This document shows positions 3,921-49,550 of a DNA stretch of 64,000 nucleotides, one piece after another; within the stretch, counting starts at the first letter, position 1; every line of letters starts with the position of its first letter. Where the stretch lies: NCBI RefSeq assembly GCF_030684315.1, contig NC_081362.1, positions 95,773,187-95,837,186 of the forward strand, read 5' to 3'. The translations under genes were made by a program, and so were the position numbers. The notes beneath the pieces are model-generated. The model was not told the origin of the DNA. It did no database searches and saw nothing but the letters and a program-made list of their open reading frames with translations. The DNA comes from Stegostoma tigrinum (Eukaryota).

Positions 3921-5024
3921 AGGTAGTAAGAACTGCCAATGCTGGGAGTCAGAGATAACATGGTGTGGAGCTGGAGGAACACAGCAGGCCAGGCAGCATC
4001 AGAGGAGCAGGAAAGTTGACGGTTTGGGTTAGGACCCTTCTCCTCCTGCTTCTATTTTCTATGTTTTACAGTGGATCTACAGAATTGGATAGGAGAACAG
4101 GCCTAAAGCAGCTAAATGAAATAAAGATACAAAAATTTAGTGAATAATTAGCAGTCAGGTAGGATCGGGTAACATCAAAGTTAATGTTTTGAGTCAGTGT
4201 TTTTCAGATTTTCAGCAACTGCAGCATTTTGCTTTTGCAGGCATCATCCCGAACCTGTGTAGAGGTCATGTAATCTAGCCAAATATTGAACATAGCATCT
4301 AAGATTACGAGGATGGGCTCCAATTTCTCAGGCTCTTCCTTACGGAGGTGAAATGCTTCTTTAAGTGTCAGAAGTCGCACATCACCAGGTTATAGTCCAA
4401 CAGGTTTATGTGAAATTCCAAGCTTTTGGTGTGCTGCTCCTTTGTCAGGTGAACTGGAGGAAGCATACAGGCACACTCCACCTCACCTGTAACTTGGCGT
4501 ATTGTGACTTCTGACTTTGTCGACCCCAGTCCAACACTGACCCCTCCACATCATTTATTTTAAGTATAGTTACCTGTTTGAACAAAGCAAATATTTTGAG
4601 TTCTCCACAGTGTTGATTGTCTTCCAGTTTTCTAGATCCTTCATCATTTTCGTAACCCCTTTCCAGGGCAGATATTCACCATCTACCCCTGAGATTTCTG
4701 GATTTTTTTTCCAATCCTGATTGTCTGTTAGCACACAGTTAACTTATAGCAGATACACGTTCCAAAAACACACAGAGATCTCAATATGGTTTAGTTTTTG
4801 AGAGCTCCTGTTCCAATCTGAATGATAAAGATGATGACTACTTCTAATGATCAACATAGGACAAGATTCTCATAGCAAGGTTTCTCTAGAAGGAATTTGG
4901 AGGGATAATCCAATCTTTCAACTTTGCAATTTGTCATAGGAAGCTTTTTATTTGTTGGGCCATTGATGGATACTGTTTGCATGTGATGCACAGAAAGAGG
5001 CCAGGTATTAACAATTGAGTAGAA

Positions 5025-5195
5025 GTAGTAGGAACTGCACATGCTGAAGAATCTGAGATAACAAGGTGTAGAGCTGGATGAACACAGCAGGCCAAGCAGC
5101 ATCAGAGGAGCAGGAAAGCTGATGTTTCAGGTCTGGACCCTTCAGATGCTGCTTGGCCTGCTGTGTTCATCCAGCTCTACACCTTGTTATCTCAA
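5025..5195. mobile_element. Palindromic Penelope terminal-repeat mini-element
   Basis: ~50-bp perfect inverted arms (gagataacaaggtgtagagctggatgaacacagcaggccaagcagcatc and its reverse complement). Confidence 0.75.
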
Positions 5196-5537
5196 TCATT
5201 GAATAGATTTTTGTACACTTACACCCAGGCCTCCAAGCTCTGTGGAAGCCCCACTTGCTCCTGAGGTGTGCATAATAGCTCTGAACAAGTTGATTAGAAA
5301 AGGTGGAAGTTTTTTTAAAATCTGAAATGTGTCCCTAGTGAATGGCATAGAACACAGCTCAGCAGTTATGGATTGGATCGGTGCTTCACTGTCTGACTGG
5401 TCCCTGGATTGCTGTTTGATGGTTTCATGATGGCACTGACTTTAACAAGTTAGTATAACTAAGTCAAGTCAGTCATATACCGATCAATAAATAAAAATTC
5501 CGAACTGAATATAATTTAATTTGGCAGAGAGTGAAAA

Positions 5538-5935
5538 AACTCAGCACTGTTTCAGTCCTGGTTCCAGGCTATTCCACAGGAACTTGTTCATATTGATGTT
5601 TTGTCCTTGCACGCTGCGAGGGGACATTGGGATCAGGGATTGGTCTCTTGGAGTTTGGCTGTTGCATTGAACAATCTGAACTTGATGAGCCTGAAGAGTG
5701 ACGTCAGGTCGTTGTCTATAGTCCTCCTCGATAGCCCTTGCATGTGTAAGTGCCTGAGGGAGGTGTCTGCACTCTTTACTACCTGATGCCATCATTGGCC
5801 TGGACACTGTCACTGAAACTGATCCCTTGCTGGTCAACCAAGCTCCATACCATCATAATGTGTACCAGGAGCTGCAGCTAAATGACCCTCAGCAGCTATG
5901 GACAGAACAACTGAAGATCAGTGCTGAGTTGTGAA
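5538..5935 (+). ncRNA. Candidate structured RNA module, copy 1 of a dispersed duplicate
   Basis: 12-bp terminal inverted repeat aactcagcactg (5538-5549)/cagtgctgagtt (5919-5930) with further nested stems. A near-identical copy lies at 13567-13962. I do not recognise a known RNA family. Confidence 0.4.
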
Positions 5936-7179
5936 TCACGTTGAAAGGTTAAACCAAAGTGCCAAGTGCGTTAGATGCCTTGATCCAAAGCTGGAACAGA
6001 GCAAACTCTGATCAGAGAAGCTACGAAGTAAGGAAGTTTAGTGACTGTACACTAAGCAATGCTGAAAGGTTTGCACCTGTCAGAATTTGTAGTTTATTTA
6101 CAGAGCTGTCTCACCCGGAGATTGAATTACTGAGAGGGGTGAGGATGGCTCACCCTGTACTGGAGGTCAACTGTAACTGAGCAACCCTTTCTCTGTGATC
6201 ATTGGTAGGTGTAATCTAATGTTCTCAGCTGCTGTAAATGAATTTGCTCATTGTCTTTAAGTCTAACCTGTTGTGCCTTGAACTGAATTTTAAATTACTA
6301 GTTGTTAAATGTTGTCAAACCAGTTTAGTGTGTAAAAATTAAACTCTTCAATTATTTATGAAACATAATAAAATAATCTCAATCAGTACCTGGTCCTAGG
6401 ATCATGGTGATGCCTTGGTTTGAGAGTTTTTTCAGGGGATTCCTCCACCACCATCACCTTTTACTTGTTTTGTTTTCTTCCCTGCTCTCTAGTCTTCAAT
6501 CTGACAATGTGTCAATAGCTGTCATCTACCATGAGCTTATATAGCAATGATCTACATCAGCAAAGTCTCACAGGGCTCTGTGACTCTAGTAAAACATCCT
6601 GCACATTGCTTCCTCAAGCACTCACACATAATGGGATAAATCTGCCTCTGCTGTGCCAATAACCTCAGCTCTTGCAATACTCTTCAGGTTAGTTGTTACA
6701 ACATTCACACTAACCATCCATGTGTCAACTTGATGTTGCCATGTGTCAACTTGATGTTGAGGTCTGATTGTACCAGGCGGAAGACCAGGAATAAGCCATT
6801 CAGTCTCTCAAGCCTGCTGTGATATTCTAGATCATGAGTAACCATCTCCCTCACTGCCATATTCCAGAGCTATTTCATACCCCTGGATGTCAATAGTAAC
6901 TCAGAACCTGCCCCTGTAACCTCACATTTCCCATGGCGAATGCACTAAACCTGCACATACTTGGACAGTATGGGTCAATTTACCAGGGCTAGCCCATGTA
7001 AAACTGCAAGTCTTTTGACTGTGAGAGGAAACCAGGTCACCTGGTAACAGGTCTATTGTCCCTTCTTCAGAACCCTGAAGAAGATTTTAAGAACCTGAAA
7101 CAGTAACTCTACTTTCTCACCAGTTTGTCCAGCAATTTCTACATTTGTTTCTGATTCCCACCATCCACACTTACTGAGT

Positions 7180-7720
7180 CATATAACACAGAAACAGACC
7201 CTTCAGTCCAAGCAGTCCATGTCCACTATAATCCCAAACTAAACTGGTCCCACCCACCTATGCTTGGCCTGTATCCCTACATACATTTCTTATTCATGTA
7301 CTTATCCAAATGTCTTTGAAATGTTATAACTGTACCCACATCCACCATGTCCTCTGTAAGTGCATTTCACACACAAACCACTCTGTGTAAAAAGGAAAGT
7401 GGCCTCTCAGGTCTTTTTTAATTGTTTCTCTTCTCACCTTAAAAATATGGTCCCTTGTGTTGAAATCCCCCACCTTAGGGAAAAGACACCTGCTATCCAC
7501 CTTATCTACACCCCTTATAATTTTGTAAACCTGTATAAGGTCACCTCTGAACCTTCTACACTCCAGTGAGGAAAAGGTCCCAGCCTGTTCACCTCTCCTT
7601 ATAACTCAAATCCTCCATTCCTGACAACATCCTGGTAAATCTCTTCTGAACCCCCTCCAGCTTAATAATATCGTTAGTATAACAGGGAGACCAGAACTGG
7701 ACACAATACTCCAGAAGAGG
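7180..7720 (-). mobile_element. CR1 LINE 3' fragment
   Basis: Antisense CR1 C-terminal motifs; same subfamily as 8905-9570. Confidence 0.8.
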
Positions 7721-7721
7721 A

Positions 7722-8885
7722 TTCATAACTTCAGTAAGGCATTTGATAACGTTCCCCATGGTAGGCTCATTCAGAAGGTCAGGAGGAATGGGACACAGGG
7801 GAACTTAGCTGCTTGGATACAGAATTGGCTGGCCAACAGAAGACAGCGAGTGGTAGTAGAAGGAAAATATTCTGCCTGGAAGTCAGTGGTGAGTGGGGTT
7901 CCACAGGGCTCTGTCCTTGGGCCTCTACTGTTTGTAATTTTTATTAATGACTTGGATGAGGGGATTGAAGGATGGGTCAGCAAGTTTGCAGACGACAGAA
8001 AGGTCGGAGGTGTCGTTGACAGTGTAGAGGGCTGTTGTAGGCTGCAGCGGGACATTGACAGGATGCAGAGATGGGCTGAGAGGTGGCAGATGGAGTTCAA
8101 CCTGGATAAATGCGAGGTGATGCATTTTGGAAGGTCGAATTTGAAAGCTGAGTACAGGATTAAGGATAGGATTCTTGGCAGCGTGGAGGAACAGAGGGAT
8201 CTTGGTGTGCAGATACATAGATCCCTTAAAATGGCCACCCAAGGGGACAGGGTTGTTAAGAAAGCATATGGTGTTTTGGCTTTCATTAACAGGGGGATTG
8301 AGTTTAAGAGTCGTGTGATCTTGTTGCAGCTCTATAAAACTTTGGTTAGACCGCACTTGGAATACTGCGTCCAGTTCTGGGCGCCCTATTATAGGAAAGA
8401 TGTGGATGCTTTGGAGAGGGTTCAGAGGAGGTTTACCAGGATGCTGCCTGGACTGGAGGGCTTATCTTATGAAGAGAGGTTGACTGAGCTCGGTCTCTTT
8501 TCATTGGAGAAAAGGAGGAGGAGAGGGGACCTAATTGAGGTATACAAGATAATGAGAGGCATAGATAGAGTTGATAGCCAGAGACTATTTCCCAGGGCAG
8601 AAATGGCTAGCACGAGGGGTCATAGTTTTAAGTTGGTTGGTGGAAAGTATAGAGGGGATGTCAGAGGCAGGTTCTTTACGCAGAGAGTTGTGAGAGCATG
8701 GAATGCGTTGCCAGCAGCAGTTGTGGAAGCAAGGTCATTGTGGTCATTTAAGAGACTGCTGGACATGTATATGGTCACAGAAATTTGAGGGTGCATACAT
8801 GAGGATCAATGGTCGGCACAACATTGTGGGCTGAAGGGCCTGTTCTGTGCTGTACTGTTCTATGTTCTATGTCCTATGTCCTATA
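7722..8885 (+). mobile_element. Young 5'-truncated CR1 LINE with open RT ORF (7850-8788)
   Basis: SGVPQGSVLGPLLF, KFADD, RPHLEYCVQFW motifs, and a (TTCTATG)n tail. Confidence 0.95.
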
Positions 8886-8904
8886 ACGCCATAGTTACCA
8901 TAAC

Positions 8905-9570
8905 ATACAGAAACAGATCCTTCAGTCCATGCCAACTATAATCCCAAACTAAACTAGTCCCACCTGCCTGCTCCTGACCCATATTATTCCAAACCTTTCC
9001 TATTTGTGCACTTATCTAAATGTCCTTTCAATGTTGTAACTCCCCACATCCACCACTTCCTCAGGAATTTCATTCCACATGTGACCCACCCTCTGTGTAA
9101 AAAGATTTCCCCTCGGATTTTTTTTTAAATTCTCTGTCATCTCACCTTAAAAATATGTGCCCCCTAGTCTTAAAATCCCCCATACCAGGGGGAAAAAACA
9201 CCTACCATTAATTGTATCTGTACCCCTCATGATTTTATAAGCTTCTATAAGGTCACCTCCCAATCTTCGGCGCTCCAGTTAAAAAAGTCTCAGCCTATCC
9301 AGCCTTTCGTTATAACTCAAACCTTCTGTAGCTGGCAACATCCTGGTAAATCTCTGTTGAACCCACTCCAGCTAAATAATACCATCCCCATAACTGGGCA
9401 ACCAGAACTGGACACCATATTCCAGAAGAAGCCTCACCAATGTCATTTGCAACCTCATTCTCAACTCCTATATTCAAAGGACCGAGCAATGAAGGCAAGT
9501 GTGCCAAACATCTTATTAACCATCCTGTCTAGTTTTGATGTAAGCATCAAAGAATTATGTACCTGAACCT
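8905..9570 (-). mobile_element. CR1 LINE 3' fragment
   Basis: Antisense CR1 C-terminus. Confidence 0.8.
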
Positions 9571-9769
9571 CTTTGGTTTTAGGTTTTCCAGGTGGTTGCC
9601 TAGATTGGAGTGTATTAATTGATAAGAAGACAAATTTGGATTATTTTTACTGGAGCATTAGAAGCTGAGAGGTGACCTGAGAAAAATGTTTAAAATTATC
9701 AGACTCATGAATAGGGTGGATGGTCAGAGTCTTTTTCCCAGGGTGGAAACATCAAATGCTAGTGGGGTT

Positions 9770-10934
9770 AAAATTGTATCGGAGATATTGGGAACTGCAA
9801 ATGCTGGAGAATCCGAGATAACAAGGTGTAGAGCTGGATGAACACAGCAGGCCAAGCAGCATCAGAGGAGCACAAAAGCTGAGGTTTCAGGCCGAGACCC
9901 TTCATCAGAAAAGGGGGATGGGGAGAGGGTTCTAAAATAAATAGGGAGAGAGGGGGAGGTGCATCGAAGATGGATAGAGGAGAAGATAGGTGGAGAGGAG
10001 ATAGACAAGTTAAAGGGGTGAGAATGGAGACTGTAGAGGTGAGTATAGGTGGGGAGGTAGGGAGGTGATAGGTGCAGTTTGAGGTGGGAGGAGGGGATAG
10101 GTGAGAGGAAGAACAAGTTAGGGAGGCGGGGATGAGCTGGGATGGTTTTGGGATGCAGTGGGGGGAGGGGAGGCTTTGAAGCTTGTGAAATCCACATTGA
10201 TACCATTGGGCTGCAGGGTTCCTAAGTGGAATGTGGTATATCGCATCAGCTGTACCCATTGTGGTTTCCACTATTTTGGGGAAACCAAAGAGAGGCTTGG
10301 GTACGGCTTTGCAGAACACCTCCGCTCTGTTCGTAACAAACAACTGCACCTCCCAGTCGTGAACCAATTCAACTCCCCCTCCCATCCCTTAGACGACATG
10401 TCCATCCTGGGCCTCCTGCAGTGCCACGATGATGCCACTGGAAGGTTGCAGGAACAGCAACTCATATTCCACTTGGGAACGCTGCAGCCCAATGGTATCA
10501 ATGTGGATTTCACAAGCTTCAAAATCTCCCCTCCCCCACTGCATCCCAAAACCAGCCCAGCTCGTCCCCACCTCCCTAACTTGTTCTTCCTCTCACCTAT
10601 ACCCTCCTGCCACCTCAAGCCGTACCTCCATTTCCTACCTCCTAACCTCATCCCGCCCTCTTGACCTGCTCGGACTGGCCTATCCCCTCCCTACCTCCCC
10701 ACCAATACCTACCTCTGCAGTGTCCATTCCCGCCCCTTTAACTTGTCTGTCCCCTCTCCACCTATCTTCTCCTTTGTCCGTCTTCGATCTGCCTCCCCCT
10801 CTCTCCCTATTTATTGCAGAGTCCTCTCCCCATCCCCCTTTTCTGATGAAGGGTTGAGGCCCGAAACATCAGCTTTTGTGCTCCTGACATGTTGCTTGGC
10901 CTGCTGTGTTCATCCAGCTCCACGCTTTGTTATC
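9770..10934. mobile_element. Penelope-like element, inverted (tail-out) arrangement with GIY-YIG remnant
   Basis: NVVYRISCTHCGFHYFGETK...LGTLQPNGIN. Minus arm 9780-10230, plus arm 10230-10934. Flanked by a 13-bp TSD tcaaatgctagtg (9752, 10935) inside a CR1 fragment. Confidence 0.88.
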
Positions 10935-11554
10935 TCAAATGCTAGTGAGTACAGGTTTAGGGTGAGAAGGGGAAAGATTAAAGGTGATATGGGACACGAG
11001 TTTTTTTACATAGGGTGGTAGGTGCTTGGAAGGAATTGCCAGGGGAGATGGTAGAAACAGGTATGATAGCAAGATTTAAGAGGATTTGGACAGGCACAAA
11101 AACAGGTAGGGAATCAATGGATACTGGCCGTGTGCAGCCACATGGAATTCACTTAAAATGGCATTGTGGTCAGGACAGTCATGGTGGGCCAAAGGGCCTG
11201 TTCCTGTGCTGTACTGTCTGATGTTCAATCAAGTGACTATCCATATGTTGGATCTTGCATTATAACTGAGGTCACCATGATATCTACTGAGGGTGAGCTG
11301 TACTCGACATTCAGAATCTCGCATCCAGGGGATGGAAGCATAGTTTCAACCCTATCATCAAATCCTCACAGGCTATAGCTGGGCTATGTGTTCAATAGAG
11401 GGTGGTGAAGGTGTTGTGGCCCTGTACTTTGACTCAGGACTCCAGAACTCTAGGCTAATGATCTGTGGACGAGTTCAAATCCTACCATGGCAGATGGTGA
11501 AATGTGAATTCAATTAAAACTGGAATTAAAAACTAATGTGAAGGTGACTGTGTA

Positions 11555-12470
11555 CTCTCTTTGAGGTGGGAGGAGTGGATGGGTAGGAGAGAAGATGGAC
11601 AGGTTGTGCCAGTTCAAGGAGGCGGGGATGAGAGGGAAGATTGGTCATGGGATGAGGCCATGGTTGGGAGATTTTGAAGCTGGTAGTGTCCACATTTAGG
11701 CCATCAGTCTGGAGGCTCCTGAGGTGGAATGTGAGGTGCTGCTTCTCCAGTTTGTGGGTGGTGTCATTGTGACACTGGAGGAGGCCCAGGATGGACATGT
11801 CACCCAGGGAGTGGGAGGGCGTGTTAAAATAGTTCACGACTGAAAGGTATTATTATTTGTTGTGAATCATTTCAGCTCCCCCTCCCACTCCCTGGGTGAC
11901 ATGTCCATCCTGGGCCTCCTCCAGTGCACAACGACACCACCCACAAACTGGAGGAGAAGCACCTCACATTCCACGCCAGGAGCCTCCAGACTGCTGGTCT
12001 AAACTTGGATATTACCAGCTTCAAAATCTCCCAACCACAGCCTCATCCCATGACCAAGCCTCCCTCCCATCCCTGCCTCCTTGATTTGACACAACTTGTC
12101 CATCTTGTCTCCTCTTACCTGCTCCTCCCACCTCACTGACCAATTTCTGATGAAGACTCTAGGCCCGAAATGTCAGCCTTCCAGCTCCTAAGATGCTTAG
12201 CCTGCTGCGTTCATCCAGCTCCACATTTTGTTATCCCACCACTGCCTACCTGCATTCACCTATCATCATCCCACCTACCTACCTTCCCCAGCCCCACCCT
12301 GTCCTCTTTCTTTATTTCTGAGCTCCCTTCCCACTCCCCATTTCTGAAGAAGGGCCCCAATCCAAAATGTCAACTTTCCTGCTCCCCTGATGCTACCTGG
12401 CCTGCTGTATTCCTCCAGTCCCACACTGTGTTATCTCTGACTCCAACATCAGCAGTTCTTAGTATGTCTG
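11555..12470. mobile_element. Penelope-like element, inverted pair of 3' fragments
   Basis: DMSILGLLQCHNDTT..KLE..HL.F motif on both strands around ~11860. Confidence 0.8.
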
Positions 12471-13021
12471 TATATGCTCTTGATTTTTTGTAAAAATTAA
12501 TGGCTCAGTAACATCAAGGAAATCTGACATCATTTCATGTGTAAACCTCTCAGCCCATAATGCATCCTATCCTGCCAGTAATCAGCTTCACCCTTCCTGT
12601 GTTGTATAGCAGCCACGGTGACAGACAGCAGTGTAGGCTCACCATTTCAGATACTTGTTATATTTTCTGCAGTGTTCCCATCACCAGAGTTCTGCTTCCA
12701 TCTGCTGGATGGAGCCTTAAACGAAACTTTGGATACTCAGGGCATGACCATCTCCTGGCCTGCTCACCTCCTGCTTCCTGACACAGGCTAGGATTGCCTG
12801 GAGATCCTGATAGGAGACATAATAGAGTTTTTGGAATTGGAAAATCTCTTGGAAGTAAGGCACTCTCTTCTGCAATATCACAACTGAAGCCAGTAGCAGC
12901 ACTCGGATTGATAAATTGGAGAGGTCCAGGTCGAGTGAAGGGTGTGAGGGTGATCCTCAGGACCCCAGACCCTGGTGATCTCTATCTGGCATTAGTTTGT
13001 TCTTCCCCTTGGGGTCAGGTT

Positions 13022-13220
13022 CATTAGCTTGGACAGCTCATCTGTGACACAGAGTGACACCAATGGAGTAAGTTCAATTCCTGCGCCTCCTGAAATTACA
13101 AGGAAGGTCACACCTTCTCAACTTCACTTCCCACCTGAGGTGTGGTGACCCTCGGGTTAAACCACCACCTGTTGCCTCTTTCTAATGAGAGCGCAGCCCC
13201 TATGGGACGAAGATAGCTTT
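13022..13220 (+). mobile_element. tRNA-derived SINE, degenerate
   Basis: A-box/B-box-like head (gttcaattcc) followed by a SINE-type body. Confidence 0.45.
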
Positions 13221-13566
13221 ACAATACCCATCACTTACCATTGAGCCATCTACATTCTATCCGACAGGCTCGATTATGCTCTGTGCTCAATGTTCCAACC
13301 TGAAACAGTGAAATGTTTCAGAGAATTACATCCCAATTGTTCAGTAGGCCACTTCGCTTGAAGCAATGTGAACATCCACCATGTCCACCGAGGTGCATTT
13401 CTACAGAGGGGGGCTATACTTCATATGGGAGAATAGTGTAGAGAGAGCTTAATTCTGTATCTAACCACGCGTTATTCTTGTCCTGAGAGTGTTTGATGGG
13501 GACAGTGTAGAGAGAGCTTTACCCTGTATCTAACCCCGTGTTATGAAAACCGCAGAGTAAACAGCC

Positions 13567-13962
13567 CAGCACCATTGCAGTCCTAGTTCCAGGCTATTCC
13601 ACAGAACTTGTTCATATTGATGTTTGTCCTTGCACGCTGCGAGGGGACATTGGGATCAGGGATTGGTCTCTTGGAGTTTGGCTGTTGCGCTGAATAAGCT
13701 GAATTTGATGAGCCTGAAGAGTGATGTCAGGTCGTTGTCCTATAGATAGTTCTCCTCGATAGCCCTTGCATGTGTAAGTGCCTGAGGGAGGTGTCTGCAC
13801 TCTTTACTACCTGATGCCATCATTGGCCTGGACACTGTCACTGAAACTGATCCCTTGCTGGTCAACCAAGCTCCATACCGTCATAATGTGTACCAGGAGC
13901 TGCAGCTAAATGACCCTCAGCAGCTATGGACAGAACAACTGAAGATCAGTGCTGAGTTGTGA
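13567..13962 (+). ncRNA. Candidate structured RNA module, copy 2
   Basis: Direct repeat of 5542-5935. The 3' ~220 nt differ at about one position; the 5' part has several substitutions and small indels. Confidence 0.4.
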
Positions 13963-15061
13963 TCACACTGAGGAGACCACTGGAGAGAGAAACTCAGTAG
14001 GCCTGGCAGTATCTGTGGTGAGAGAAACAGAATTCATATTTTACATCCAACAACGCATTTTCACTGCTGAAAGGTCTGAACTCCAGCGATTTTTGGTTTC
14101 CTTTACAATACATGATTTCTGGTTTTAATACTTTATCAGTGTTTCCTCTTATCATACATTGAAGGGTGTTTGTGTCAGCATTTAACTGGGTGGATCCCTC
14201 ATCCCACAGAGATATTGTGCAGACAGATCGTCGAGTACAAATTACAACTGAACAACAGAATCTTTGGGTATGCATCATCTAGTGTCTGTTCCTGGATTTC
14301 TCCAACTCCCCATTCTTCTCCCTCTCTCCCCGTCACTCTCTATCGACACATTATCGTCTCTTTTTCCGTCTTTTCATCTCGTCCTTTTCTGCCTTGTCTT
14401 CCTGTCTCTGCTTTGTTCTCTCTGTCTTTGTGTATATCTTTGTCTTTTATCTCTCGGTTCTTCCTGACTGTCCAAATTCAATCTTTCACTCTGCCCTGTG
14501 TAGGTATCTATGCCTACCCGCAACTTTAACTCTCCAGAGGTATTCTTTCAACAGATTTCGGGATGCTGGAGTTCTGAACCAACCCTCACTTCCCTGAAGA
14601 GCTGTGAGGCTGTGTCTTGGGCTGTGACCTGTTTGGATAGTGGCAGTTTGGGGTGTTTGATTCTGAGCCAAAGCTCTCAGTCTCCATGTTCAATTCTCAA
14701 TCTGCACCTAAGATGATGTTGCAAGTGGTGATTTATCAACTTTTCACTGAACTCATTTGAGTGCGCATGACAATAAAGCAAATGCAGTTCACACCATTGA
14801 TTGGTATGAGGCCAGCTTACAGCCAGCAGCTTAAGCTGAAATATCTCTGACCAACCCCAGGTACTCCCCTCCCCTTCCCATACTCAGTTTATTACTTGGA
14901 GAATTAAGCCAGAGGGACTCATCAGATTTTCAACTGGTATTTTGTTCAATGAGCTAGGTATGGCATAGACTACCAACTGGTGAAGGGTTGGTGGGAGGAG
15001 GGAAATGGTTGAGTGCTGTTTCGCCAATGAGTCCCACAAGACCTGACTTATATCAGCATTG

Positions 15062-15363
15062 GTGATAATGGGAGCTGCAGATGCTGGAGAATACAAGATA
15101 ACAAAGTGTGGAGCTGGATGAACACAGCAGGCCAAGCAGCATCAGAGGAGCACAAAAGCTGACTTTTCGGGCCTAGACCCTTCATCAGAGAGGAGCAGCT
15201 TTTCATGCTGTGGTATAAAGTGCTGTCTGGAATTTGGCATACTTCCACCAGGTGCTATCTCCATCCCCTTTTCTGAAGAAGGGTCTAGGCCCAAGACGTC
15301 AGCTTTTGTGCTCCTGAGATGCTGCTTGGCCTGCTGTGTTCATCCAGCTTCACACTTTGTTAT
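15062..15363. mobile_element. Palindromic Penelope terminal-repeat mini-element
   Basis: Inverted arms, each with a hammerhead-like motif; 15-bp TSD cttatatcagcattg (15047, 15364). Confidence 0.8.
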
Positions 15364-15589
15364 CTTATATCAGCATTGCCTGAGTTTCCCCTCCCACTCG
15401 GGGACAGTGCACCCAGTGGCCTTCCCATAGCTTTGATCCCAGGTGACAGCAATACTGAACAAGTCAGATCTCCGTGTGATAATCAGCTGGAAAAATCTTT
15501 TATCTTTTATTTTAGTTTTTCTTTTAGTTCATGTTTTGCAGTCGATTGCCACAATGATTAGTCACTGAAATATACACAGATAAGGCTGC

Positions 15590-15855
15590 AGATAGATTTA
15601 AGACGGATGTCAGAGGCAGGTGCTTTACTCAGAGAGTGGTAAGGGTGTGGAACGCCCTGCCTGCCAATGTAGTTAACTCAGCCACATTAGGGGCATTTAA
15701 ACAGTCCTTGAATAAGCAGATGGATAATGATGGGATAGTGTAGGGGGAGGGGCTTAGATTAGTTCACAGGTCGGTGCAACATCGAGGGCTGAAGGGCTTG
15801 TTCTGCGCTGTGTTGTTCTATGTTCTATGTTCTATGTTTATTGTTCTATGTTCTT
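15590..15855 (+). mobile_element. CR1 3' end
   Basis: DVRGR.FTQRVVRVWNALP motif and TTCTATG tail. Confidence 0.85.
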
Positions 15856-16489
15856 TAACAACAGAAGTCAAGCTTTTTATACAGAAGGGAAAGAAAGAAA
15901 AAAAAAACAGGCAACACTACAGGAGAGAAAAGTATGTTCAAAAGATCTTAGCATAAACATCCAAATGGAGCTCAAGTTGTTTCCTAGCCCTATCTGTTTC
16001 TGAGACACAGAGACACAGACCTGTCTCAGTGTGCTATATCTGATGAAGGGTCTAGGCCCGCAACTTTCCTGTGCCTCTGATGCTGCTTGGCCTGCTGTGT
16101 TCATCCAGCTCCACATTTCGTTATCTCTGATTCTCCAGCAACTGCAGTTCCTACTATGTCTGATGCCATATCTATAACTTGTTTCCTAACACTATCTGCT
16201 CCTGAGACACAGAGACACAGGCCTGTCTCAGCATGCTATATCTGCTTAACCGACACTTTCTAGTTTCCTTTTCATGGACATTGGACACATTTCTCCGATT
16301 ATTTACTGAGATCAACGGCATAAACCTTTCATTATTCTGTTGTTGTAAACACTTCCACCTCAAACAATCTGCAGATTTTGATCAAAGCTCTCCTGGCTTG
16401 CAATCTCCACAGACTAGAATCTACATCTGCTGCTCCAAACTGAGCTAAAATACTTGGTTGCCCTGTTCAGAGAAAATCTATTATAAAGT

Positions 16490-17450
16490 CATAGAGTAAT
16501 ACACCATGGAAACATGCCCTTCGACCCAAAACTGGGCCATGCTGACCATGGTAACCACTCAGCTAATTCCAATCACCTGCATTTGGCCCATATCCCTCTG
16601 AATGCTTCCCATCCATATGCTAATCAAGTTTTTTCTTAAATGTTGCTATTGTACCTGCCTCAGCCACTTTCTCTGGCAGCTCATTCCACATACGCACCAC
16701 TGTCAGTGTGAAGATATTGCCCTTCTTCTTAAATCTTACCCCTCTCACCTTAATCCTATGCCCTCTAGTTTTCAATTCCCCATCCCTGGAAAACAGACGA
16801 TATCCATTCATCATATCTATGCCCTTCATGATTTTATACATGTCAATAACATCAACCCTCATTCTCCTATGTACCAAGGAATAAAGCCCTATCCTGACCA
16901 ATCACTCCTTATAACTCAGGGCTACCAGACCTGACAACATCCTCATAAATCTTCTTTGCCTACTTTCCAGTTTAACTGTGTCTTTCCTATAACAGGGTGA
17001 CCAAAACTGTACACAATTCTCTAGGCGCAGCCTCACCAATGATGGAAACAACTGTAACATAATGTCCCAACTCCTATGCTCAATGCCTTGACCGATGAAG
17101 GCCAGCATGCTAAATTCCTTCTTCACTGCTCTATCTACCTGTGTCGCTGCCTTCAATGAAATATGTACTTGTACTCCTAGGTTCCACAACTCGCCCCGGG
17201 ACCTTACCATTCACTGTATAAGTCCTATCTTGGTTTGACTTTCCAAAGTGCAACACCTCACACAGGTATCTGTACTGAATTGTATTTGCTGGTCCTCAGC
17301 CCCTTCCCCATCTGATCAAGATCCCTCTTTAATTTTTGATAACCTTCCTCACTATCAACAATATCTCCTATCTTTGTTTCATCATCAAACTTACTAATCA
17401 TGCCTTGTACATTCACATCCAGATCATTTATGTAAGTAACAAATAACCCT
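16490..17450 (-). mobile_element. CR1 LINE fragment
   Basis: LGVQVH.SLK, LENCVQFWSP and WNELP motifs on the minus strand. Confidence 0.85.
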
Positions 17451-17546
17451 ATCTTCCTCTAAACTCAACCTTCTGTTTTGTAAAGACCGCAACAGTTTGT
17501 TTAGCTTTAATTTTGGTCATGAGCTGAATTGGAAACAGGACTGACC

Positions 17547-17790
17547 GGCACGGTGGCTCAGTGGTTTAGCACTGCTGCCTCACAGCACCAAGGACCCAGA
17601 TTTGATTCCACCCTCGGTCGACTGTCTTTATGGAGTTTGCACATTCTCCCCATGTCTGTGTGGGTTTCCTCCGCGTGCTTCAGTTTCCTTCCACAGTCCA
17701 AAGATGTGCACATTAGGTGAATTGGCTATGCCAAATTGCCCACGGTTAGGTGGATTAGCCACGGAAAATGCAGAGCAGGGTAGGCGGGTG
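17547..17790 (+). mobile_element. HE1-like V-SINE
   Basis: ggcacggtggctcagtggtttagcactgctgcctcacagc head and ggagtttgcacattctcccc...gggtttcctcc V-domain. Confidence 0.85.
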
Positions 17791-18939
17791 GTGGTGGGTG
17801 GGGGGGGGCAGCGTTTGCGGGCGGGATGGGTCTCAGACTGGGGACTTGTTGGGCTGGCCCTAGTTCTAGCCTGGAGGTGTCAAATGTTAAACAATTTCCT
17901 ACTCATCCTACAGAGCAACTTCACATTTTCCGACATTAACTCTGTTTGCCCACTTTTCACCCACTTATGTAACCTATCAATATCTTTCTGTAAGCTGTCT
18001 GCATCCCTCTAACAACTTCTGTTTTTGTCTAAAGTACATTCACTTCCTTCCTCTCAGTCATTAGTGTAAACTGTAAATAATTGCAGTTCCAGCACCAATC
18101 CCTGTGGAACTCTACAGAAACACTTACCCATTCCCCATACAATTGAAACCTCCATTCCTATTTCATTCCCACATGTTTTGCTCCCGTCCTGTGCAGCAGA
18201 GCTAACTGTGGTCTAACAGATTTGGCTGTTGCTGTTTTCCCCTGAGAGGCCATTCTGCTCAAAACTGGCCAAATTGGTTTATCTGTTTCTCAGGGGAATG
18301 GCAACAGGGAATTCCTGCTGTGCCTGCCTGGTCCTCTGACACTGCCTGGTGTTCACTCATTCCCTTTCCGCCAGTGGAGTGTTAGCTTGCAGTGTGACCA
18401 CCTCTCTGTACTATCCGCCTTTGTGGATGCTCCACAGTATCTCCTGCCTCCCCTTCAGCTCTGAATTCCAGGATTGCGGCATCCTGGGCACACGCTGTTC
18501 CCAGCCACTGGGAACGTTCCCGGCTTCCCACAGGGAGCAAGAGGAGCCCACCATGGTTCAGAACTCTGCTTTAAAATTAAATAAAATTCATGACTTGAGG
18601 ACCTCTGCACGATTGTCCTTAGAAAGCATAATCCTGAAATAAAGACCTTATAATCTTTAAATGATAAAAGTGGTAAAATGACTTCACAGTCTTTCTCACG
18701 CCATCAGCCCGGAGTCATATTTAAAATCCCGACATCGCATCAGGAGTTCTGTCTTTGGAATTGGTGAAGACTCGCTTCATTCTGCTCTACTCCCACTGCT
18801 ACTCCCTCTGGGCCTTGCACCTCAGGCTTCTATCAGGGTGCTCCACAGCTGCTGTCCAACCTCAGATTCACTTCTCTTGCTGCTTCAACTGGTTTCATCA
18901 TGATGCTGACTGCAGGACACCTTCCCAGACTGCTTCATA

Positions 18940-20250
18940 AGAACGTGAGAAATGGGAGCAGGAGTAGGCTGTCTGGCCCATCGAGCCTGCTCCACCATTC
19001 AAGAAGATCATGGCTGATCTCCTTGTAGACTCAGCTCCACTCACCTACCCGCTCACCATAACCTTCAGTTCCTGTACTGTTCAAAAATCTGCCGATCTTT
19101 GCCTTCAAAACATTCAATGAGATATCCTCAACTGCTTCACTGGGCAGGGGATTCCACAGATTCACACCCCTTTGGGTGAAGATGTTACTCCTCAACCGAG
19201 TCCTAAACCTGCTCCCCCATATTTTCAGGCTATGCCCCCTAGTTCTAGTTTCATATGCCAGTGAAATAACCTCCCTGCTTCTATCTTATCTATTCCCTTC
19301 AAAATTTGATATTTTTCTATTAGATCCATCCTCATTCTCCTAAACTACAATAAGCGTAGTCCCAGTCTACTCAATCCCTCCTTATAAGGCAACCTTCTCA
19401 ATTTTGGAATCAACCTAATGAAACCCCTCCTCACACCCTCCAGTATCAAGTAAGGCACCAAAACGGTACACAATACTCCAGGTGTGGTCTCACCAGCCTC
19501 CTATACAGCTGTAGCATAGCCTCCCTGTTTTAAACCCCATCCCTTTAACAATGAAGGACAATATTCCATCTGTCTTCTTAACTTGCAAATCAATTTTTTG
19601 TGATTTATGCACAAGGACACCCAGGTGCCTCTGCATGGCAGCATGCTGCAATTTTTCACCATTTACACAATAGTCCCTTTAGCTAATATTCTTACCAAAA
19701 TGGATGACTTCACATTTATCAACATTGTATTCTATCTGCCAGATCCTGGCCCACTTATTTAGTTTCTCTACATCCCTCTGTAGACACTATGTCTCTGCAC
19801 TCTTTGCTCTCAGACTCACTTTTGAGTTATGTGTGAATTTTGACACACTACACTTGGTCCCCAACTCTAAATCATCTCTGTAAATTGTAAACAATTACGG
19901 TCCCAACACTGTTCCCTGAGGCACACCACTAGCCACTCACCGCCAACCAGAAAAACACTCATTTCTCCCAACTTTTTGCATTCCATTAGTTACCCAATCG
20001 TCTATCTATGCTAATATATCGCCTGACACTTTGCATCTTTATCTGATGCAGCAGTCTTTTGTGTGGCATCTTGTCTGCCTTCCGGAAATCCAGATACACT
20101 ATGCTCACCGTGCCCATAATGTCCTCAAAGAATTCTAGTAAATTAATTAAACATGACCTGCCATTCCTGAACCTATGCTGTGTCTGCCCAATGGGACAAT
20201 TTATATCCAATTGTCCTGCTATTTCTTCTTTGATTATAGATTGAAGCATT
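18940..20250 (-). mobile_element. CR1 LINE fragment
   Basis: GRSCLINLLEFFE, VYLDFRKA and a CR1 3' tail on the minus strand. Confidence 0.85.
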
Positions 20251-20560
20251 CCTCCCATTAGAAAAGGGCCCTGACCCGAAACGTCAACTTTCCTGCTCCT
20301 CTGATGCTGCCTGGCCTGCTGTGTTCCTCCAGCTCCACAGTATGTTATCACTGACTCCAGCGTGAGTAGTTCTTACTATCTCTGCTGTCATCAATCCTCT
20401 TTGTTACTTCTTCAAAAGACTCAATCAAGTTAGTTTGACACCATTTCCCATGCACACAGCCATGTTGACAATTTGATGCACTGAATACCTTTATTGTGTG
20501 CTCAGTACTGTATGGTATCGATAATTTATAATGCGCACACAGCATTGCTTTTACTTTCAG

Positions 20561-21772
20561 GTATCAATTGCTGGTATTAGATTCTTTGCATGGTATAATT
20601 CAACAGATGTTAAACACCTGATAAGCACATATCATCGTGGTGGGTTTTCTGTTCTTCAATCAGAGTTCGAGAAAAAAAAACACATTTGAAAATGTGAAGA
20701 TTGATATTGCAGTGATGCGTGCAACAGGTGTAGGGTAATCAACATTAGTTAACGCACTGAGAGACATGGATATCAATGATAAAGATGCAGCTCCCATTGA
20801 TGTTGTAGAAGCCACAATGGAACCCAAATACTATGCACACCCCACTGTACCCAACATGATGTGCTGGGACTCCCACAGAATCAGCTCAGTTAACTTTGAA
20901 GTTAAGAAGTTCCTCAAAGAGACCAAGTTTTCAGCTTTCGACTTTAGTTTAATTGTTTCTGATCTCTGCTTCAGAGAAGAAGATGAAATCCTGGCCAAAG
21001 CGATGAAGAAGCCAGGTAAACTGATCTTCTTTGAGCGTTCAAAGATTGACCAATCTCTCTCATCTGAGGGAAAGAAACACCTTTACAGCAAAGAACGAGT
21101 TCTTCAGAAAATCAGGAATTATTGTTCTAACTCATTGGTCACAATGGGTATGAAAGATGAACATGTCTTTCTCATATCATGTGACAATCTGGATAAGTGT
21201 GAATTCCCTAAATTATGCCGTGCTTTCGACGCTGTCCTACCAGAAACAAAGAAGAATGTGTTTTTTGCTGTCTCTACCAAAGAGACCCATAGATGTTATT
21301 GAAAAGAAACAGGAAGGCCTGAAGATATTCATGAATGAGATTGCTGCAGCCTCTGCAGGCTGTGGTGCCATTCCTATTGCAGAGGTATCCTATGTCTGTG
21401 ACCTGGCCCTGATTTCCTCCACACTGCTGTTCATGCATACAGTTCTGTGTCTGAATGTCTCTGCAATGAAAAGGCTGACTCTGTTGGGTGGGAAGATCTG
21501 TGACTGACCTGCAAGCTAACATTGAGGACACATGAATGTTTGGAGAGATGAATCCAAAACTTGGTGTGGAGGTTACTGATGCAGAACACCACCACCATCA
21601 CGTCCCAGTCTTTGGCATAATCTTTGGGATAACCTCATCTTCTTATGTAACCTGCACCATACTGACTCAGGCACTAAAGGATATGTTGAAAACTGCAAAA
21701 ACAGTCCTTAAGAATGCCAAACGGTCTTGTTTAAATCATCTGCACCAGGCAAGGAGAAACAGGAATACATAA
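20561..21772 (+). pseudogene. Immunity-related GTPase (IRG/IIGP, IRGC-like) pseudogene, single long exon
   Basis: Translates as VKIDIAVMRATGVG*STLVNALRD...AAP...YAHP...WD...RSKID...FLIS...LLSLP...AAASAGCGAIP, the IRG motif order. The P-loop Lys is a TAA stop (20736-20738) and G3 WDLPG is degraded to WDSHR. There are frameshifts in the A-run (~20675) and the T-run (~21265), plus a stop at 21505-21507. A splice acceptor ttactttcag ends at 20560. Confidence 0.9.
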
Positions 21773-22779
21773 TATACTGCTGTTGCAGACATATCGCAGT
21801 TAATCCCTGTCCTCACTACTTGCTCCTCACCATTCTGAGTCCCTGTTACTCATCATTCTTGGTGTTTGCGCTCAGAAACAGTTAGAGGCACTGGCTACTG
21901 CAAAGACTACAGGACCTGAACAAAATCATCAACAAAGCCTTCACAGCATGAACTCAGTCCATCTTCTTCTATTTTGAAAAAATTCTAAACCCCGTGATAT
22001 TAATAATCACAACATATGCAAAACACCACGAGTCCTTCACTGATCAAATATTAAAATCCATTTTTCTTCTCTCTATAGGCTCAGTTTTCAAATGTTAAAA
22101 ACCATCTAACATTCCTCCCTCCCTCTTCTGAACTGGAGTCGGATCAACTTGGCAGAGATTTCATTTGCAATATGTGAGCAATGCAAGCAACAGACTATAG
22201 ACTCACGTGTAGGAGGTCCATTGGTCACTGGGAATAACACTGTTTTGGGGTGTACCTAATGCTGTGTTCAGAGATATACACTCCATATTGCTGCCTTAAT
22301 GTGAAACATGTCCACATCCTACCCGACGTCCACAGGTGCATCATGTTCCTGCTCTTGTAGTCACTGTGTTTACATGACAAGTCAAGTTCAGTTTCTGGTC
22401 AATGGTTACTCCCAGGATAGTGGGGAATTCAATGATAGTAATACCAACAAACGTTAAGGGGTGTTGGTTAAATTTTCTCTTATTGGGGATCGTAATTGGC
22501 TGGCATTTAGGTGGCACAAGTATGGTTTTTGCTGCCTGTCAGCCAAAGCCTGGATATTGTCTGGATCTTGTTACATTTGGACTTGGGCTGCTTCGGTGTC
22601 TGCGTCACGAACAGTGCTGAACGTTGTGTTACATTTGGGATGGGGTGGTGATGGCCTAGTTGTATTGTCAGTGGACTGTTAATTCAGAGTCAGGTAACAT
22701 TCTGGGGATGCAGGACTGAATCCTGTCGTGGCACATGGTGGAATTTCAATTCAATTAAAAAACAATCTGGAATTAAGAG

Positions 22780-26979: not shown

Positions 26980-27333
26980 TTCCAGGTTTGTTCCTTGTCG
27001 GATGTGACAGTGACAGATTTATACTTCAGGTTGGAGATGATCTTATCACTCCCTGTTACTTTTATTCACAAAACGAGCCTCAGTTCATCACCGTCCAATG
27101 GGAGAAACTGGGAGCCAGCAGATTGGTTCAGCATTATCAGATCAACAGGACTCTCTTTGACCAACTGGATCCAGACTATCGAAACCGAGCCCAGCTGTTT
27201 GAGAATGAGATTGCAGAAGGCAATGTCTCACTGAGGTTACACAATGTGCGTCTATCTGATGCAGGGACATACAGGCTCAATGTCAGTGCGACCTCAGGAG
27301 CTAGTTTCAAGGATATCACTATTGAGGTGGGAG
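26980..27333 (+). CDS. B7/butyrophilin-like receptor, IgV exon
   Basis: Sequence LITPCYF...VQWEK...DPDYRNRAQLFENEIAEGNVSLRLHNVRLSDAGTY is typical of B7/BTN V-set domains. Phase-1 acceptor ttgcag (alternative ttccag 6 nt later) and phase-1 donor gag|gtaaga. Confidence 0.9.
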
Positions 27334-27786: not shown

Positions 27787-28071
27787 CCATTGGCCATTCT
27801 CCCAGATTTTACTCATTTGTTACAAAGAAGAACGACTCAGTGTTGGTTTGTGAGTCCACAGGCTGGTATCCCGCACCGAGTGTGACCTGGCAAAACTACA
27901 GGTGGAGGAACATCACAAAATCTTCCCAGACCCACGAGACAGACAGCAGAGATGGCACAGTCCGGGTACGCAGCGCCATGACCTTCCCGACTGGCTCCAA
28001 AGGCAGTTTCACCTGTACCATCTGGAACTCATTACTGCACCAGGGCATCGCTGCCAATTATACACTGCCAA
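27787..28071 (+). CDS. B7/butyrophilin-like receptor, first IgC exon
   Basis: LVCESTGWYPAPSVTW...VRVRS...FTCTIWN is a BTN/B7 C-set signature. Exon is phase 1/1 with donor a|gtgagt. The acceptor appears to be a GAG after a pyrimidine tract. Confidence 0.88.
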
Positions 28072-29580: not shown

Positions 29581-29865
29581 CTGTAGGCTATGGCCCATAC
29601 ATCCAGTCACGGGTAACAGGAGGTGGGCGCTCGGTGCTGACCTGTGAGTCCTCAGGCTGGTACCCCACTCCAGATGTCAGTTGGCACAATGACCTGGGTG
29701 ACACCATGACACGATTCCTACTCACCGAGCTGACCAACAGCACCGATGGGAGCGTGTCTGTGAAGAGCTCACTCAAACTGAAAGCTGGGTCAAGTGGGAA
29801 CTACACCTGCACCATCTGGAACCCGGTGTTGGAGCAAGGATTGTTTCACCGCTTCACTGTCCTTA
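29581..29865 (+). CDS. B7/butyrophilin-like receptor, second IgC exon
   Basis: LTCESSGWYPTPDVSW...VSVKS...YTCTIWN. Acceptor ctcttgccag, donor a|gtgagt. Same length (285 nt) as the first IgC exon. Confidence 0.9.
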
Positions 29866-29994: not shown

Positions 29995-30525
29995 AGAACA
30001 TAGAACATAGAACATAGAACATAGAACATAGAACAGTACAGCACAGAACAGGCCCTTCAGCCCACAATGTTGTGCCGACCATTGATCCTCATGTATGCAC
30101 CCTCAAATTTCTGTGACCATATACATGTCCAGCAGTCTCTTAAATGACCCCAATGACCTTGCTTCCACAACTGCTGCTGGCAACGCATTCCATGCTCTCA
30201 CAACTCTCTGCGTAAAGAACCTGCCTCTGACATCCCCTCTATACTTTCCACCAACCAGCTTAAAACTATGACCCCTCGTGCTAGCCATTTCTGCCCTGGG
30301 AAATAGTCTCTGGCTATCAACTCTATCTATGCCTCTCATTATCTTGTATACCTCAATTAGGTCCCCTCTCCTCCTCCTTTTCTCCAATGAAAAGAGACCG
30401 AGCTCAGTCAACCTGTCTTCATAAGATAAGCCCTCCAGTCCAGGCAGCATCCTGGTAAACCTCCTCTGAACCCTCTCCAAAGCATCCACATCTTTCCTAT
30501 AATAGGGCGCCCAGAACTGGACGCA
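29995..30525 (-). mobile_element. Young CR1 3' fragment in the intron of the Ig gene
   Basis: Nearly identical to 8365-8875; (AGAACAT)n tail. Confidence 0.95.
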
Positions 30526-31003
30526 GAACTGGTTTCAGCCTGTGCAGAATGCACAGATGCAGAATTAAACGTCCCTGTTTGGTTGCAGACAACAATGAGT
30601 TTGTGTGTTCTTTAGTTCTGACTGGAGTCTAGTAACTGTTCAGCACAGAATAGTTTTCACTGGGCCATTTTTCAATTGCTGCCTGAGTGTGGCCTCCCAC
30701 ACTCACAACTTTTCCTTTGGCCAGGCCTACAGCTGCCCAAGAACTGCCAAGGAGGATGTGTGGGATTGAAAGGGACACGATAGTGTGAGAGCACTCTGGG
30801 ACTAGCACCGTGTTACGCAGCTGAGAGTCTCAGTGTGAGCCTGGACTGCTCCTTGTATGAGAGCATAGGCCGGGCCAATCCCAGATACCGAATATCGAAG
30901 GAATCTATCTATTCGTCTCACCAAGTCTGGTCTTGGTCTCTGAGGGTGAGTGAACTTCCCTTGTGGGTGGAATCTCTTTTCTGGAATTTTGTTTGTTTTC
31001 CAG

Positions 31004-46426: not shown

Positions 46427-46932
46427 TTACATATAACTGGCAATATCTGAAAGGTTAGGTTCCTGCAGTTTGGGAAGCATAATTCTCACACCCTCGATGA
46501 CCTTGTGGATCTGTGAGCCAGTCATCAGGAGCTCAGTCCCTGGGCCTTGCAGCTGAGCTTGTGCACAGGTCTCTCTTACAAATGGGATCAGGGGAACCAT
46601 GCTGTACATGTGCTGGGCCTGAGCCTTCAATGCACTCACTCGCCCATGTAGAGCTGACAGGTGCTGGTGGCAGCGCTTGAGTTTACATTGCACATTGGCC
46701 AATGCACCACGGGATCTTTTGATCTTTAGTAACTCTGCCTTCACCACACTCAGGCTCTCTGCTGTCTCTTCCCTTTTCTTCTCCAACTCTGGGAACTGAC
46801 TGTTGAGTTTCTCCATTTCCTCTTCATCCTTTGTGATGTTTGCTTTCACATGAGAGAGATCCTCCAAAGCTATGTCCACTTCAGACTTCCTGTACAGTCG
46901 CTCCTTCTCAAAGGCAACTGCCATTGGGATCC
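46427..46932 (-). CDS. Uncharacterised coiled-coil protein, coding exon 2 (spliced product 326 aa)
   Basis: Acceptor ttttccctccag is phase-compatible with exon 1. Reads GIPMAVAFEKERL, then coiled coil, to TAA at 46427. Minus-strand AATAAA at 46227-46232. Confidence 0.8.
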
Positions 46933-49050: not shown

Positions 49051-49550
49051 TGCAGGATATGGTCCTCTGGAAATTTCAGAGCATGGGGCCCAGACAGCTG
49101 AAAGCATGGTCACGAGTGATGGAGTGACTGAAATAGGGGATGCGCAAGGCTAGAATTAGAAAGGTGCAGAGATTGTAGAGGATTGTGGGGTTGTACGACA
49201 TAACAGTGAATAAGAGGGTGAGGCCATAGAGGGGTTTAAACATTGGACTGAGAATTTTAAAAATGAGTTGTTGTTTCTTGAGAAGCGAATGTAGGTCAGT
49301 GAGCCCAGGGATGAATAGTGGCAGAGCTTGGTTTGCACTGGGATAGTAGCAGCAGAATTGTACATGAATTAATTCAGATCCCCGGAGAATTGAAGTTGGA
49401 AGATGGTGACGAGTGGGATGGAATAATTAATGTCTGACATCACAATGGTTTTCATCATCTGAGGTGGGAGGCAGGAGCTGGGCGATGGTGTGGATGTTAT
49501 GGTCAGTCTTTGTAAAAATCAATACTTTATTCTCCTGATAAACATCTTAC

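What the first reader, a model, noticed from the sequence alone, without database searches (positions are those of the whole stretch)
5538..13962. One ~395-nt structured module duplicated 8 kb apart, with repeat boundaries matching the terminal stem
5538-5935 and 13567-13962 are direct copies, and similarity starts and stops close to the closing helix (aactcagcactg/cagtgctgagtt). The duplicated unit therefore equals the folded unit. Internal helices include gttcatattgatg/catcataatgtgtac, the tgtccttgca/tgcgaggggaca hairpin and tggagtttgg/ccaagctcca, with a possible crossing pair gggatcag/ctgatccc. The 3' half is almost identical between copies while the 5' half has diverged, hinting at gene conversion or unequal constraint. 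It could be a retrocopied RNA, a MITE-like element, or an exapted fragment of an old RTE-type LINE (weak minus-strand resemblance: HYDGM, FRLFN..AKLQET).
Basis: partly seen in the sequence, partly recalled or inferred. Interest (0 to 1): 0.7.

Follow-up and report, generated by a model that had tools for sequence, protein, structure and literature searches.

The report
One-off local copy of UTR hairpin
A 415-base, weakly self-complementary stretch that likely lies in the untranslated tail of an immune-receptor gene has one extra copy 8 kb away, most likely pasted there by a DNA-repair accident, and nothing found here marks it as a functional RNA or a transposon family.

Summary
The duplicate is real: 5524/5528-5939 and 13549/13554-13966, 94% identical, with no third copy found in the 3.2-Gb genome. 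Its ends lie 14 and 9 nt outside a 12-bp stem, which 0 of 6287 random local segments match. Only copy 1 folds better than shuffles (z -3.5); copy 2 has four broken pairs in the stem (z -1.0 to -1.3). Differences form two clusters, and no change is compensatory. In two runs of this species single contigs cross both ends of copy 1, which lies downstream of a B7-H4/B7-H3-like gene and likely in its 3' UTR. In a related species the element is no better conserved than its flanks (8% against 6.5%). No Rfam family, RTE relic, TIR family, poly(A) tail or larger segmental duplication was found. Best reading: an imperfect fold-back in a likely UTR, copied once as a templated insertion between two repeats, with its ends probably set by the fold. 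Two oddities remain: the stem-boundary match, and a hammerhead-like core that misses the consensus by two single bases.

The parts
5524..5939 (+). Copy 1: imperfect fold-back segment, likely the donor, in unique sequence covered by contigs
13549..13966 (+). Copy 2: 94%-identical duplicate between a minisatellite and a repeat-end fragment; left arm of the stem broken
5538..5549 (+). Left arm of the 12-bp terminal stem (pairing continues 5550-5556 with 5910-5916)
   Evidence: pair probability 0.99
5919..5930 (+). Right arm of the 12-bp terminal stem
5597..5628 (+). Nested helices pairing with 5881-5909; with the terminal stem they make about 60 nt of near-continuous pairing of the right arm
   Evidence: probabilities 0.90-1.00
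5629..5636 (+). GGGATCAG, paired with 5819-5826 in the predicted fold of copy 1
5691..5702 (+). Hammerhead-like CUGAAGA plus 5-bp helix strand (partner 5809-5813); near-miss, not a canonical core
5809..5824 (+). Helix partner, one extra U (5814), GAAA (5815-5818) and CUGAUC, which can pair with 5916-5921; no cleavage-site nucleotide in register
5537..5560 (+). First cluster of differences between the copies (7 substitutions)
5666..5723 (+). Second cluster of differences (7 substitutions and the 5-nt gap; copy 1 lost the 5 nt)
5531..5535 (+). GTGAA, repeated at 5931-5935 just outside the stem of copy 1 (TSD-like 5-mer; inside the duplicated unit)
13430..13544 (+). About 1.7 units of a 69-bp minisatellite-type repeat left of copy 2
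13986..14070 (.). Decayed end fragment of a dispersed repeat (matches the family profile on both strands; likely Penelope-like) right of copy 2
   Evidence: family name from earlier notes
5185..6357 (.). Stretch covered by contigs of this species that run across copy 1 (X2 5185-6167, X3 5231-6357, X6 5499-6277)
6367..6372 (+). AATAAA just beyond the last contig end; candidate polyadenylation signal
   Evidence: inference

Best explanation
Copy 1 is an imperfect fold-back stretch that likely lies in the long 3' UTR of the upstream B7-family gene, and copy 2 is a single, likely non-functional duplicate of it that was probably written into a DNA break 8 kb downstream by templated repair. SHOWN: two copies only; unrelated flanks; no poly(A) or TSD at copy 2; shared sequence runs 14 and 9 nt past the stem; contigs cross both ends of copy 1; no compensatory change; no excess conservation in a related species. 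INFERRED: (1) a broken end in repeat-rich DNA near 13.55 kb switched to the nearby template and copied about 415 nt; (2) the copied single strand folded as soon as the right arm was made, with its two ends brought together, and so left the template there, which would explain why the unit matches the fold; (3) afterwards both copies drifted (12 of 15 substitutions are transitions, a CpG decayed independently in copy 2 and in the related species), and the clustering of differences came from error-prone junction synthesis, arm homogenisation in copy 1 or short gene-conversion tracts, not from selection.
For: Two copies in DNA, protein and pattern searches of the genome. Within window -5000..22000 the only low-copy match between the two neighbourhoods is the 412-nt unit; a two-copy profile finds nothing below E 0.27 in 264 kb. 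Copy 2 sits between a cut minisatellite unit and a repeat-end fragment, longest TSD-like match 4 nt. One contig each in runs X2 and X3 bridges both ends of copy 1. Leader, IgV, IgC and transmembrane exons with a stop lie 1.3-7.1 kb upstream of the window on the same strand, then a splice acceptor at about -265; best solved relatives VTCN1/B7-H4 and CD276. Related species: 11 differences in 138 nt of the element against 22 in 340 nt of flank, p=0.55. The fold signal needs both arms: 1 of 14 sliding windows reaches z -3.6, the other 13 lie between -1.4 and +0.8. Insertions with no TSD or poly(A) are a described class (PMC5110952, passages read); IR-arm homogenisation by template switching is described (PMC8604942, passages read).
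Against: The left end lying near the stem is not explained by release at the right arm, and taking copy 2 out in silico did not restore a flanking repeat. In PMC5110952 the experimental insertions came from distant regions and were attributed to RNA, not nearby DNA. The arm homogenisation in PMC8604942 was sought only for spacers up to 70 bp, here the spacer is about 370 nt. Outside the terminal arm 8 of 9 differences at paired positions keep a pair, a weak hint of structural constraint (the fold was predicted from copy 1). The inner region 5597-5909 still folds with z -2.95. No contig links copy 1 to the coding exons, and the runs are not on record as RNA. Which copy is the donor is inferred from context only.
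Confidence: 0.55

Rival explanations
1. A stable RNA of about 410 nt is trimmed out of the UTR up to its terminal stem and was reverse-transcribed once by a LINE or Penelope enzyme, so copy 2 records the ends of a real structured RNA.
For: Explains both ends lying 9-14 nt outside the stem. Copy 1 folds well on the gene's strand and keeps the stem that copy 2 lost. Copy 2 lies 19 nt from a likely Penelope end fragment; Penelope enzymes can move unrelated sequence in trans (PMC3846280, passages read); RNA-derived patches without TSD exist (PMC5110952).
Against: No poly(A), TSD or flanking pLTR pair. Insertion only 8 kb from the source favours DNA. Contigs cross both ends (contigs cannot show RNA ends). 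No Rfam match even at E<=1. No excess conservation or covariation.
Confidence: 0.17
2. The unit is a non-autonomous DNA transposon (12-bp TIR, 5-bp target duplication) that hopped locally.
For: Perfect 12-bp inverted ends in copy 1, weak collinear complementarity over about 110 nt of each arm (19 of 300 shuffles score as high), GTGAA on both sides of the stem.
Against: Copy 2 carries both GTGAA-side flanks of copy 1, so it is not bounded by the TIRs, has no TSD of its own and has a broken left TIR. No family: a 21-mer of the right arm has 1 non-self hit that does not extend; a 16-mer has 74 hits, but 0 of the 27 non-self loci among the 30 fetched extend past 26 nt; of 58 loci with 9-nt arms at this spacing, only copy 1 has these arms among the 50 listed. 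Copy 1 may still descend from a very old such element.
Confidence: 0.1
3. The two copies are the last trace of an older, larger tandem duplication in this B7-like gene cluster, kept alike by gene conversion.
For: Three B7-like genes lie within 100 kb. Identity is patchy, with two near-identical tracts of 105 and 216 nt.
Against: About 0.3 kb of unique sequence left and 1.2 kb right of copy 1, and about 1 kb on each side of copy 2, do not align. The paralogous genes' surroundings hold no similar stretch. Overall divergence (3.7%) is below that between the two species (5-8%), so no old age is needed.
Confidence: 0.1
4. The unit is a decayed, discontinuous hammerhead ribozyme or retrozyme-like element in the UTR.
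For: CUGAAGA, a 5-bp stem II, GAAA and a 6-8-bp stem III are in order on the + strand of both copies; 4 of 5000 shuffles meet the descriptor drawn from this case, and 10 of 1500 shuffles and 5 of 242 local windows give a near-miss with at most 2 defects. A discontinuous hammerhead is known in the 3' UTR of Clec2 genes (PMC6155905, passages read).
Against: A strict descriptor finds none: one extra U before GAAA, no nucleotide at the cleavage position, stem I only 3 bp. The tests were built after seeing the motif, and a self-complementary sequence makes stems cheap. No tandem array, no Rfam hammerhead hit.
Confidence: 0.04
5. The unit is a relic of an RTE-type LINE or a duplicated coding exon.
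Against: No Pfam family near its cut-off; only self hits in the genome at E<=10 and E<=1; the 5-nt difference shifts the 83- and 103-codon frames in copy 2 and the related species; no YADD/FADD-like motif (recalled RT motif) follows AKLQET.
Confidence: 0.04

Closest known systems
Class 2 templated sequence insertions (Onozawa and Aplan, PMC5110952; passages read)
   Same: A few hundred bases of unique genomic sequence copied to a new site with no TSD, no poly(A) tract and the donor left intact.
   Different: Here the donor is 8 kb away, not distant; the unit is bounded by a stem; no empty allele could be examined.
Template-switch homogenisation of inverted-repeat arms (PMC8604942, passages read; PMC5453318, search listing and start of abstract only)
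   Same: A cluster of substitutions in one arm, most of which favour pairing in one copy.
   Different: Described for short spacers (up to 70 bp in the study read); here about 370 nt; direction of change unknown without an outgroup.
MITEs / non-autonomous TIR elements (recalled definition)
   Same: About 400 nt, non-coding, inverted ends, fold-back, a 5-mer on both sides in copy 1.
   Different: No family in the genome; the second copy includes flanks and has no TSD.
Discontinuous hammerhead ribozyme in Clec2 3' UTRs (PMC6155905; passages read) and metazoan retrozymes (PMC7229834; search listing and start of abstract only)
   Same: Likely 3' UTR of an immune surface-protein gene; core-like words around a junction with long inserts.
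   Different: Core has two single-base defects; long inserts are in stems II and III, not helix I; no tandem array; no conservation shown.
B7 / butyrophilin-like Ig genes, closest solved chains VTCN1 (B7-H4) and CD276 (B7-H3)
   Same: Host context: leader, IgV, IgC, transmembrane exons upstream on the same strand.
   Different: Orthology not tested; the link from gene to element is inferred.

Membership tests
Class 2 templated sequence insertion | No TSD and no poly(A) tract at the insert | tested here: met
   longest TSD-like match at copy 2 is 4 nt; no A tract
Class 2 templated sequence insertion | Donor sequence retained elsewhere | tested here: met
   copy 1
Class 2 templated sequence insertion | Microhomology, microdeletion or added bases at junctions against an empty site | tested here: inconclusive
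   in-silico empty site did not restore a repeat; no empty allele available
MITE / non-autonomous TIR element | Terminal inverted repeats at the ends of every copy | tested here: not met
   perfect in copy 1 only; shared sequence runs past them
MITE / non-autonomous TIR element | Own target-site duplication for each insertion | tested here: not met
   GTGAA at copy 1 only, none at copy 2
MITE / non-autonomous TIR element | Dispersed family | tested here: not met
   (DNA searches give lower bounds; pattern counts are whole)
Hammerhead ribozyme | CUGANGA followed by stem II | tested here: met
   5691-5702 with 5809-5813
Hammerhead ribozyme | GAAA directly after stem II | tested here: not met
   extra U at 5814
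Hammerhead ribozyme | NUH cleavage triplet between stems III and I | tested here: not met
   strict descriptor 0 hits on both strands of both copies; H missing in best near-miss
Hammerhead ribozyme | Self-cleavage | not testable with these tools
   needs an in vitro assay
Known ncRNA family (snoRNA/scaRNA, telomerase RNA, others in Rfam 15) | Match to a covariance model | tested here: not met
   0 at gathering; best E 1.1-1.7, miRNA models far below cut-off
Conserved structured RNA element | Conservation above flanks and compensatory changes | tested here: not met
   one related species, 138 nt: p=0.55; 0 double-sided changes among 19 mapped substitutions; power is low
Conserved structured RNA element | Discrete RNA with ends at the stem | not testable with these tools
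   only contigs were available; they cross both ends
RTE-clade LINE relic | Reverse-transcriptase similarity in translation | tested here: not met
   no RTE-specific profile was available
Segmental duplication | Flanks align once repeats are set aside | tested here: not met

The most novel reading that the evidence does not exclude
The 3' UTR of a shark B7-H4/B7-H3-like mRNA releases or contains a discrete rod-shaped RNA of about 410 nt, possibly descended from a discontinuous hammerhead ribozyme, and copy 2 is a reverse-transcribed fossil of that RNA whose ends mark the processing sites.
Probability: 0.1. Interest if true: 0.6.

Novelty: new member of a known kind. Interest (0 to 1): 0.2.

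Why it matters
As read here it is one more short templated duplication and matters little, beyond a clean case in which secondary structure may have set the ends of an insertion. If the novel case held, it would show a structured regulatory RNA in the UTR of an immune checkpoint-like gene of a cartilaginous fish, with its ends recorded in the genome.

Tried and rejected
No RNA holder listed: none of the 6 runs is on record as RNA, so expression is inferred, not shown. No copy-2 letters appear among the listed differences (12 rows not shown), which is no evidence that copy 2 is silent; the lack of cover at 6452-6763 is likewise no proof of a 3' end. Rfam at gathering and E<=10: nothing real. 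Pfam on 253 stop-free frames of at least 42-52 codons in unique DNA from -50 kb to 15 kb: 0 families at E<=0.002; my repeat mask had hidden the Ig exons, which were then found by reading. A selenoprotein reading of the minus frame (6 of 6 stops are TGA) was dropped: the 5-nt difference breaks it in copy 2 and the related species. Arms derived from neighbouring repeat families: profiles of three families give no hit inside the unit below E 0.27. The excess of the arm 16-mer in the genome comes from a dispersed repeat whose other strand reads PQGSVL (a LINE RT motif, recalled) and shares only 14-17 nt with the arm. A 22-mer of the core has 0 matches in viral contigs. The protein atlas gave no result, which says nothing. 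Earlier findings near the place or like the sequence: none. Literature searches for shark B7-H4/VTCN1 gave 0 and 1 papers (listing only); no search for this element by name was possible, so nothing is claimed about print.
Full report
Observation. The two stretches are direct copies: 5528-5939 and 13554-13966, 393 matches, 15 substitutions, four single-base gaps and 5 extra bases in copy 2. The window lies on a 99-Mb contig of a 3.2-Gb genome, and DNA searches with the whole unit and with each end, protein searches with three frames, and a pattern from the right arm find only these two copies (one further 23-nt match does not extend). The DNA and protein searches give lower bounds.

Fold. The signal needs both arms: of 14 sliding windows only the one holding both reaches -3.6. 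The right arm 5881-5939 pairs almost throughout with 5531-5556 and 5597-5628, so the unit is an imperfect fold-back. Copy 2 does not stand out because four pairs of the terminal stem are broken. The shared sequence ends 14 and 9 nt outside the 12-bp stem, which 0 of 6287 random unique segments match. This coincidence is real for copy 1; the ends of copy 2 are matched by 3-4% of random segments.

Pattern of differences. Seven substitutions lie in 5537-5560, none in 5561-5665, seven in 5666-5723 and one after that (clustering p=0.005, 12 of 15 transitions). None is compensated on the other side. Outside the terminal arm 8 of 9 changes at paired positions (6 in copy 2, 2 of 3 in the related species) keep a pair through G-U or A-U, which is only a weak hint because transitions often do.

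Context. Reading the 10 kb before the window showed leader, IgV, IgC and transmembrane exons on the + strand, with a stop in the last and a further splice acceptor about 265 nt before the window. Pfam gives V-set and butyrophilin-type IgC; the closest solved chains are VTCN1/B7-H4 and CD276. Two more such genes lie at about -63 to -73 kb and at 27-30 kb. Contigs from three runs of this species cover 5185-6167, 5231-6357 and 5499-6277; two of them bridge both ends of copy 1, and AATAAA follows at 6367. The runs are not on record as RNA; their small size and patchy cover make RNA likely. So copy 1 likely lies in the far part of a long 3' UTR, but no contig links it to the exons. A run of another organism holds 5661-5798 with 11 differences and the 5 extra bases of copy 2, against 10 in 184 nt and 12 in 156 nt for two flanking pieces: the element is not better conserved than its flanks (p=0.55), and copy 1 lost the 5 nt. 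Copy 2 sits between a cut 69-bp repeat unit and a decayed repeat-end fragment; its flanks do not align with those of copy 1, and it has no TSD or A tail.

What it is not. No Rfam family. No RT or other Pfam domain in 9 read-through frames. No TIR family: 74 genome hits of an arm 16-mer trace, in the 30 loci fetched, to self, to a dispersed repeat sharing 14-17 nt, or to isolated matches, and paired 9-nt arms at this spacing are mostly inverted ends of the flanking repeat family (50 of 58 loci listed). A GTGAA 5-mer flanks the stem in copy 1, so an ancient TIR origin of copy 1 is possible, but copy 2 includes those flanks and so was not cut out at the TIRs.

Hammerhead-like core. CUGAAGA, a 5-bp helix, GAAA and a 6-8-bp helix occur in order on the + strand of both copies. 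A strict descriptor finds nothing; the best fit needs one extra U and lacks the cleavage-site base. Shuffles reach such a near-miss in 10 of 1500 cases and local windows in 5 of 242, by tests built after the fact. The genome is rich in repeats with true short cores (28 of 60 and 11 of 23 members of two local families; earlier unreviewed notes call them Penelope ends), but their profiles do not match the unit. It stays a lead of low probability.

Mechanism. Most likely a break in repeat-rich DNA was patched by copying the nearby fold-back; folding of the new strand, once the right arm was made, would release it and set the end. These steps are inferred. The result resembles class 2 templated insertions (PMC5110952, passages), though those came from distant sites and were ascribed to RNA, so an RNA intermediate trimmed to the stem is the main rival. 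The clusters of differences can come from error-prone junctions (PMC4937565, abstract), arm homogenisation (PMC8604942, passages; short spacers only) or conversion; the data here do not separate them. Supplements of these papers were not opened.

Verdict. Real duplicate, real but one-sided fold, no sign of function beyond a likely UTR location. New member of a known kind; interest 0.2.

Noticed in passing
L012:2897-8744 (window -7100 to -1250), + strand: B7/butyrophilin-like gene (leader, IgV, IgC, transmembrane exon ending in a stop; almost no cytoplasmic tail); best solved relatives VTCN1 and CD276.
   Followed up: partly
window 26997-27305, 27789-28067, 29583-29864 (+); also about -63.5 kb and -73.2 kb (-): Two paralogous B7-like genes; the one in the window has one IgV and two IgC exons.
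   Followed up: partly
window 20739-21504 (+): Interferon-inducible GTPase (IRG/IIGP) frame, Pfam IIGP E 4e-42, matching only model positions 49-226 and with altered motif residues; may be broken.
   Followed up: partly
window 46430-47014 and 49522-50394 (-): Two long coiled-coil-like open frames, probably exons of one gene; no Pfam family above cut-off.
   Followed up: partly
window 8365-8884 and 30007-30526: Two inverted copies of a LINE 3' part, 99% identical over 520 nt: a young retroelement family.
   Followed up: no
window 5018-5194, 9778-10943, 11562-12470, 15058-15370, 52576-53561: Many short dispersed repeats, often as inverted pairs; 28 of 60 family members carry a CUGANGA..GAAA core; RT-like frames at 52.6-53.6 kb. 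Earlier notes call this family Penelope-like.
   Followed up: partly
window 5691-5924: Hammerhead near-miss with two single-base defects in both copies.
   Followed up: yes
window 5835: C>G allele in runs X3 and X6, at an unpaired position of the predicted fold.
   Followed up: partly
L009:7800-9250 and L010:3000-3950: GC-rich, promoter-like or repeat-derived stretches 27-32 kb upstream of the window.
   Followed up: no
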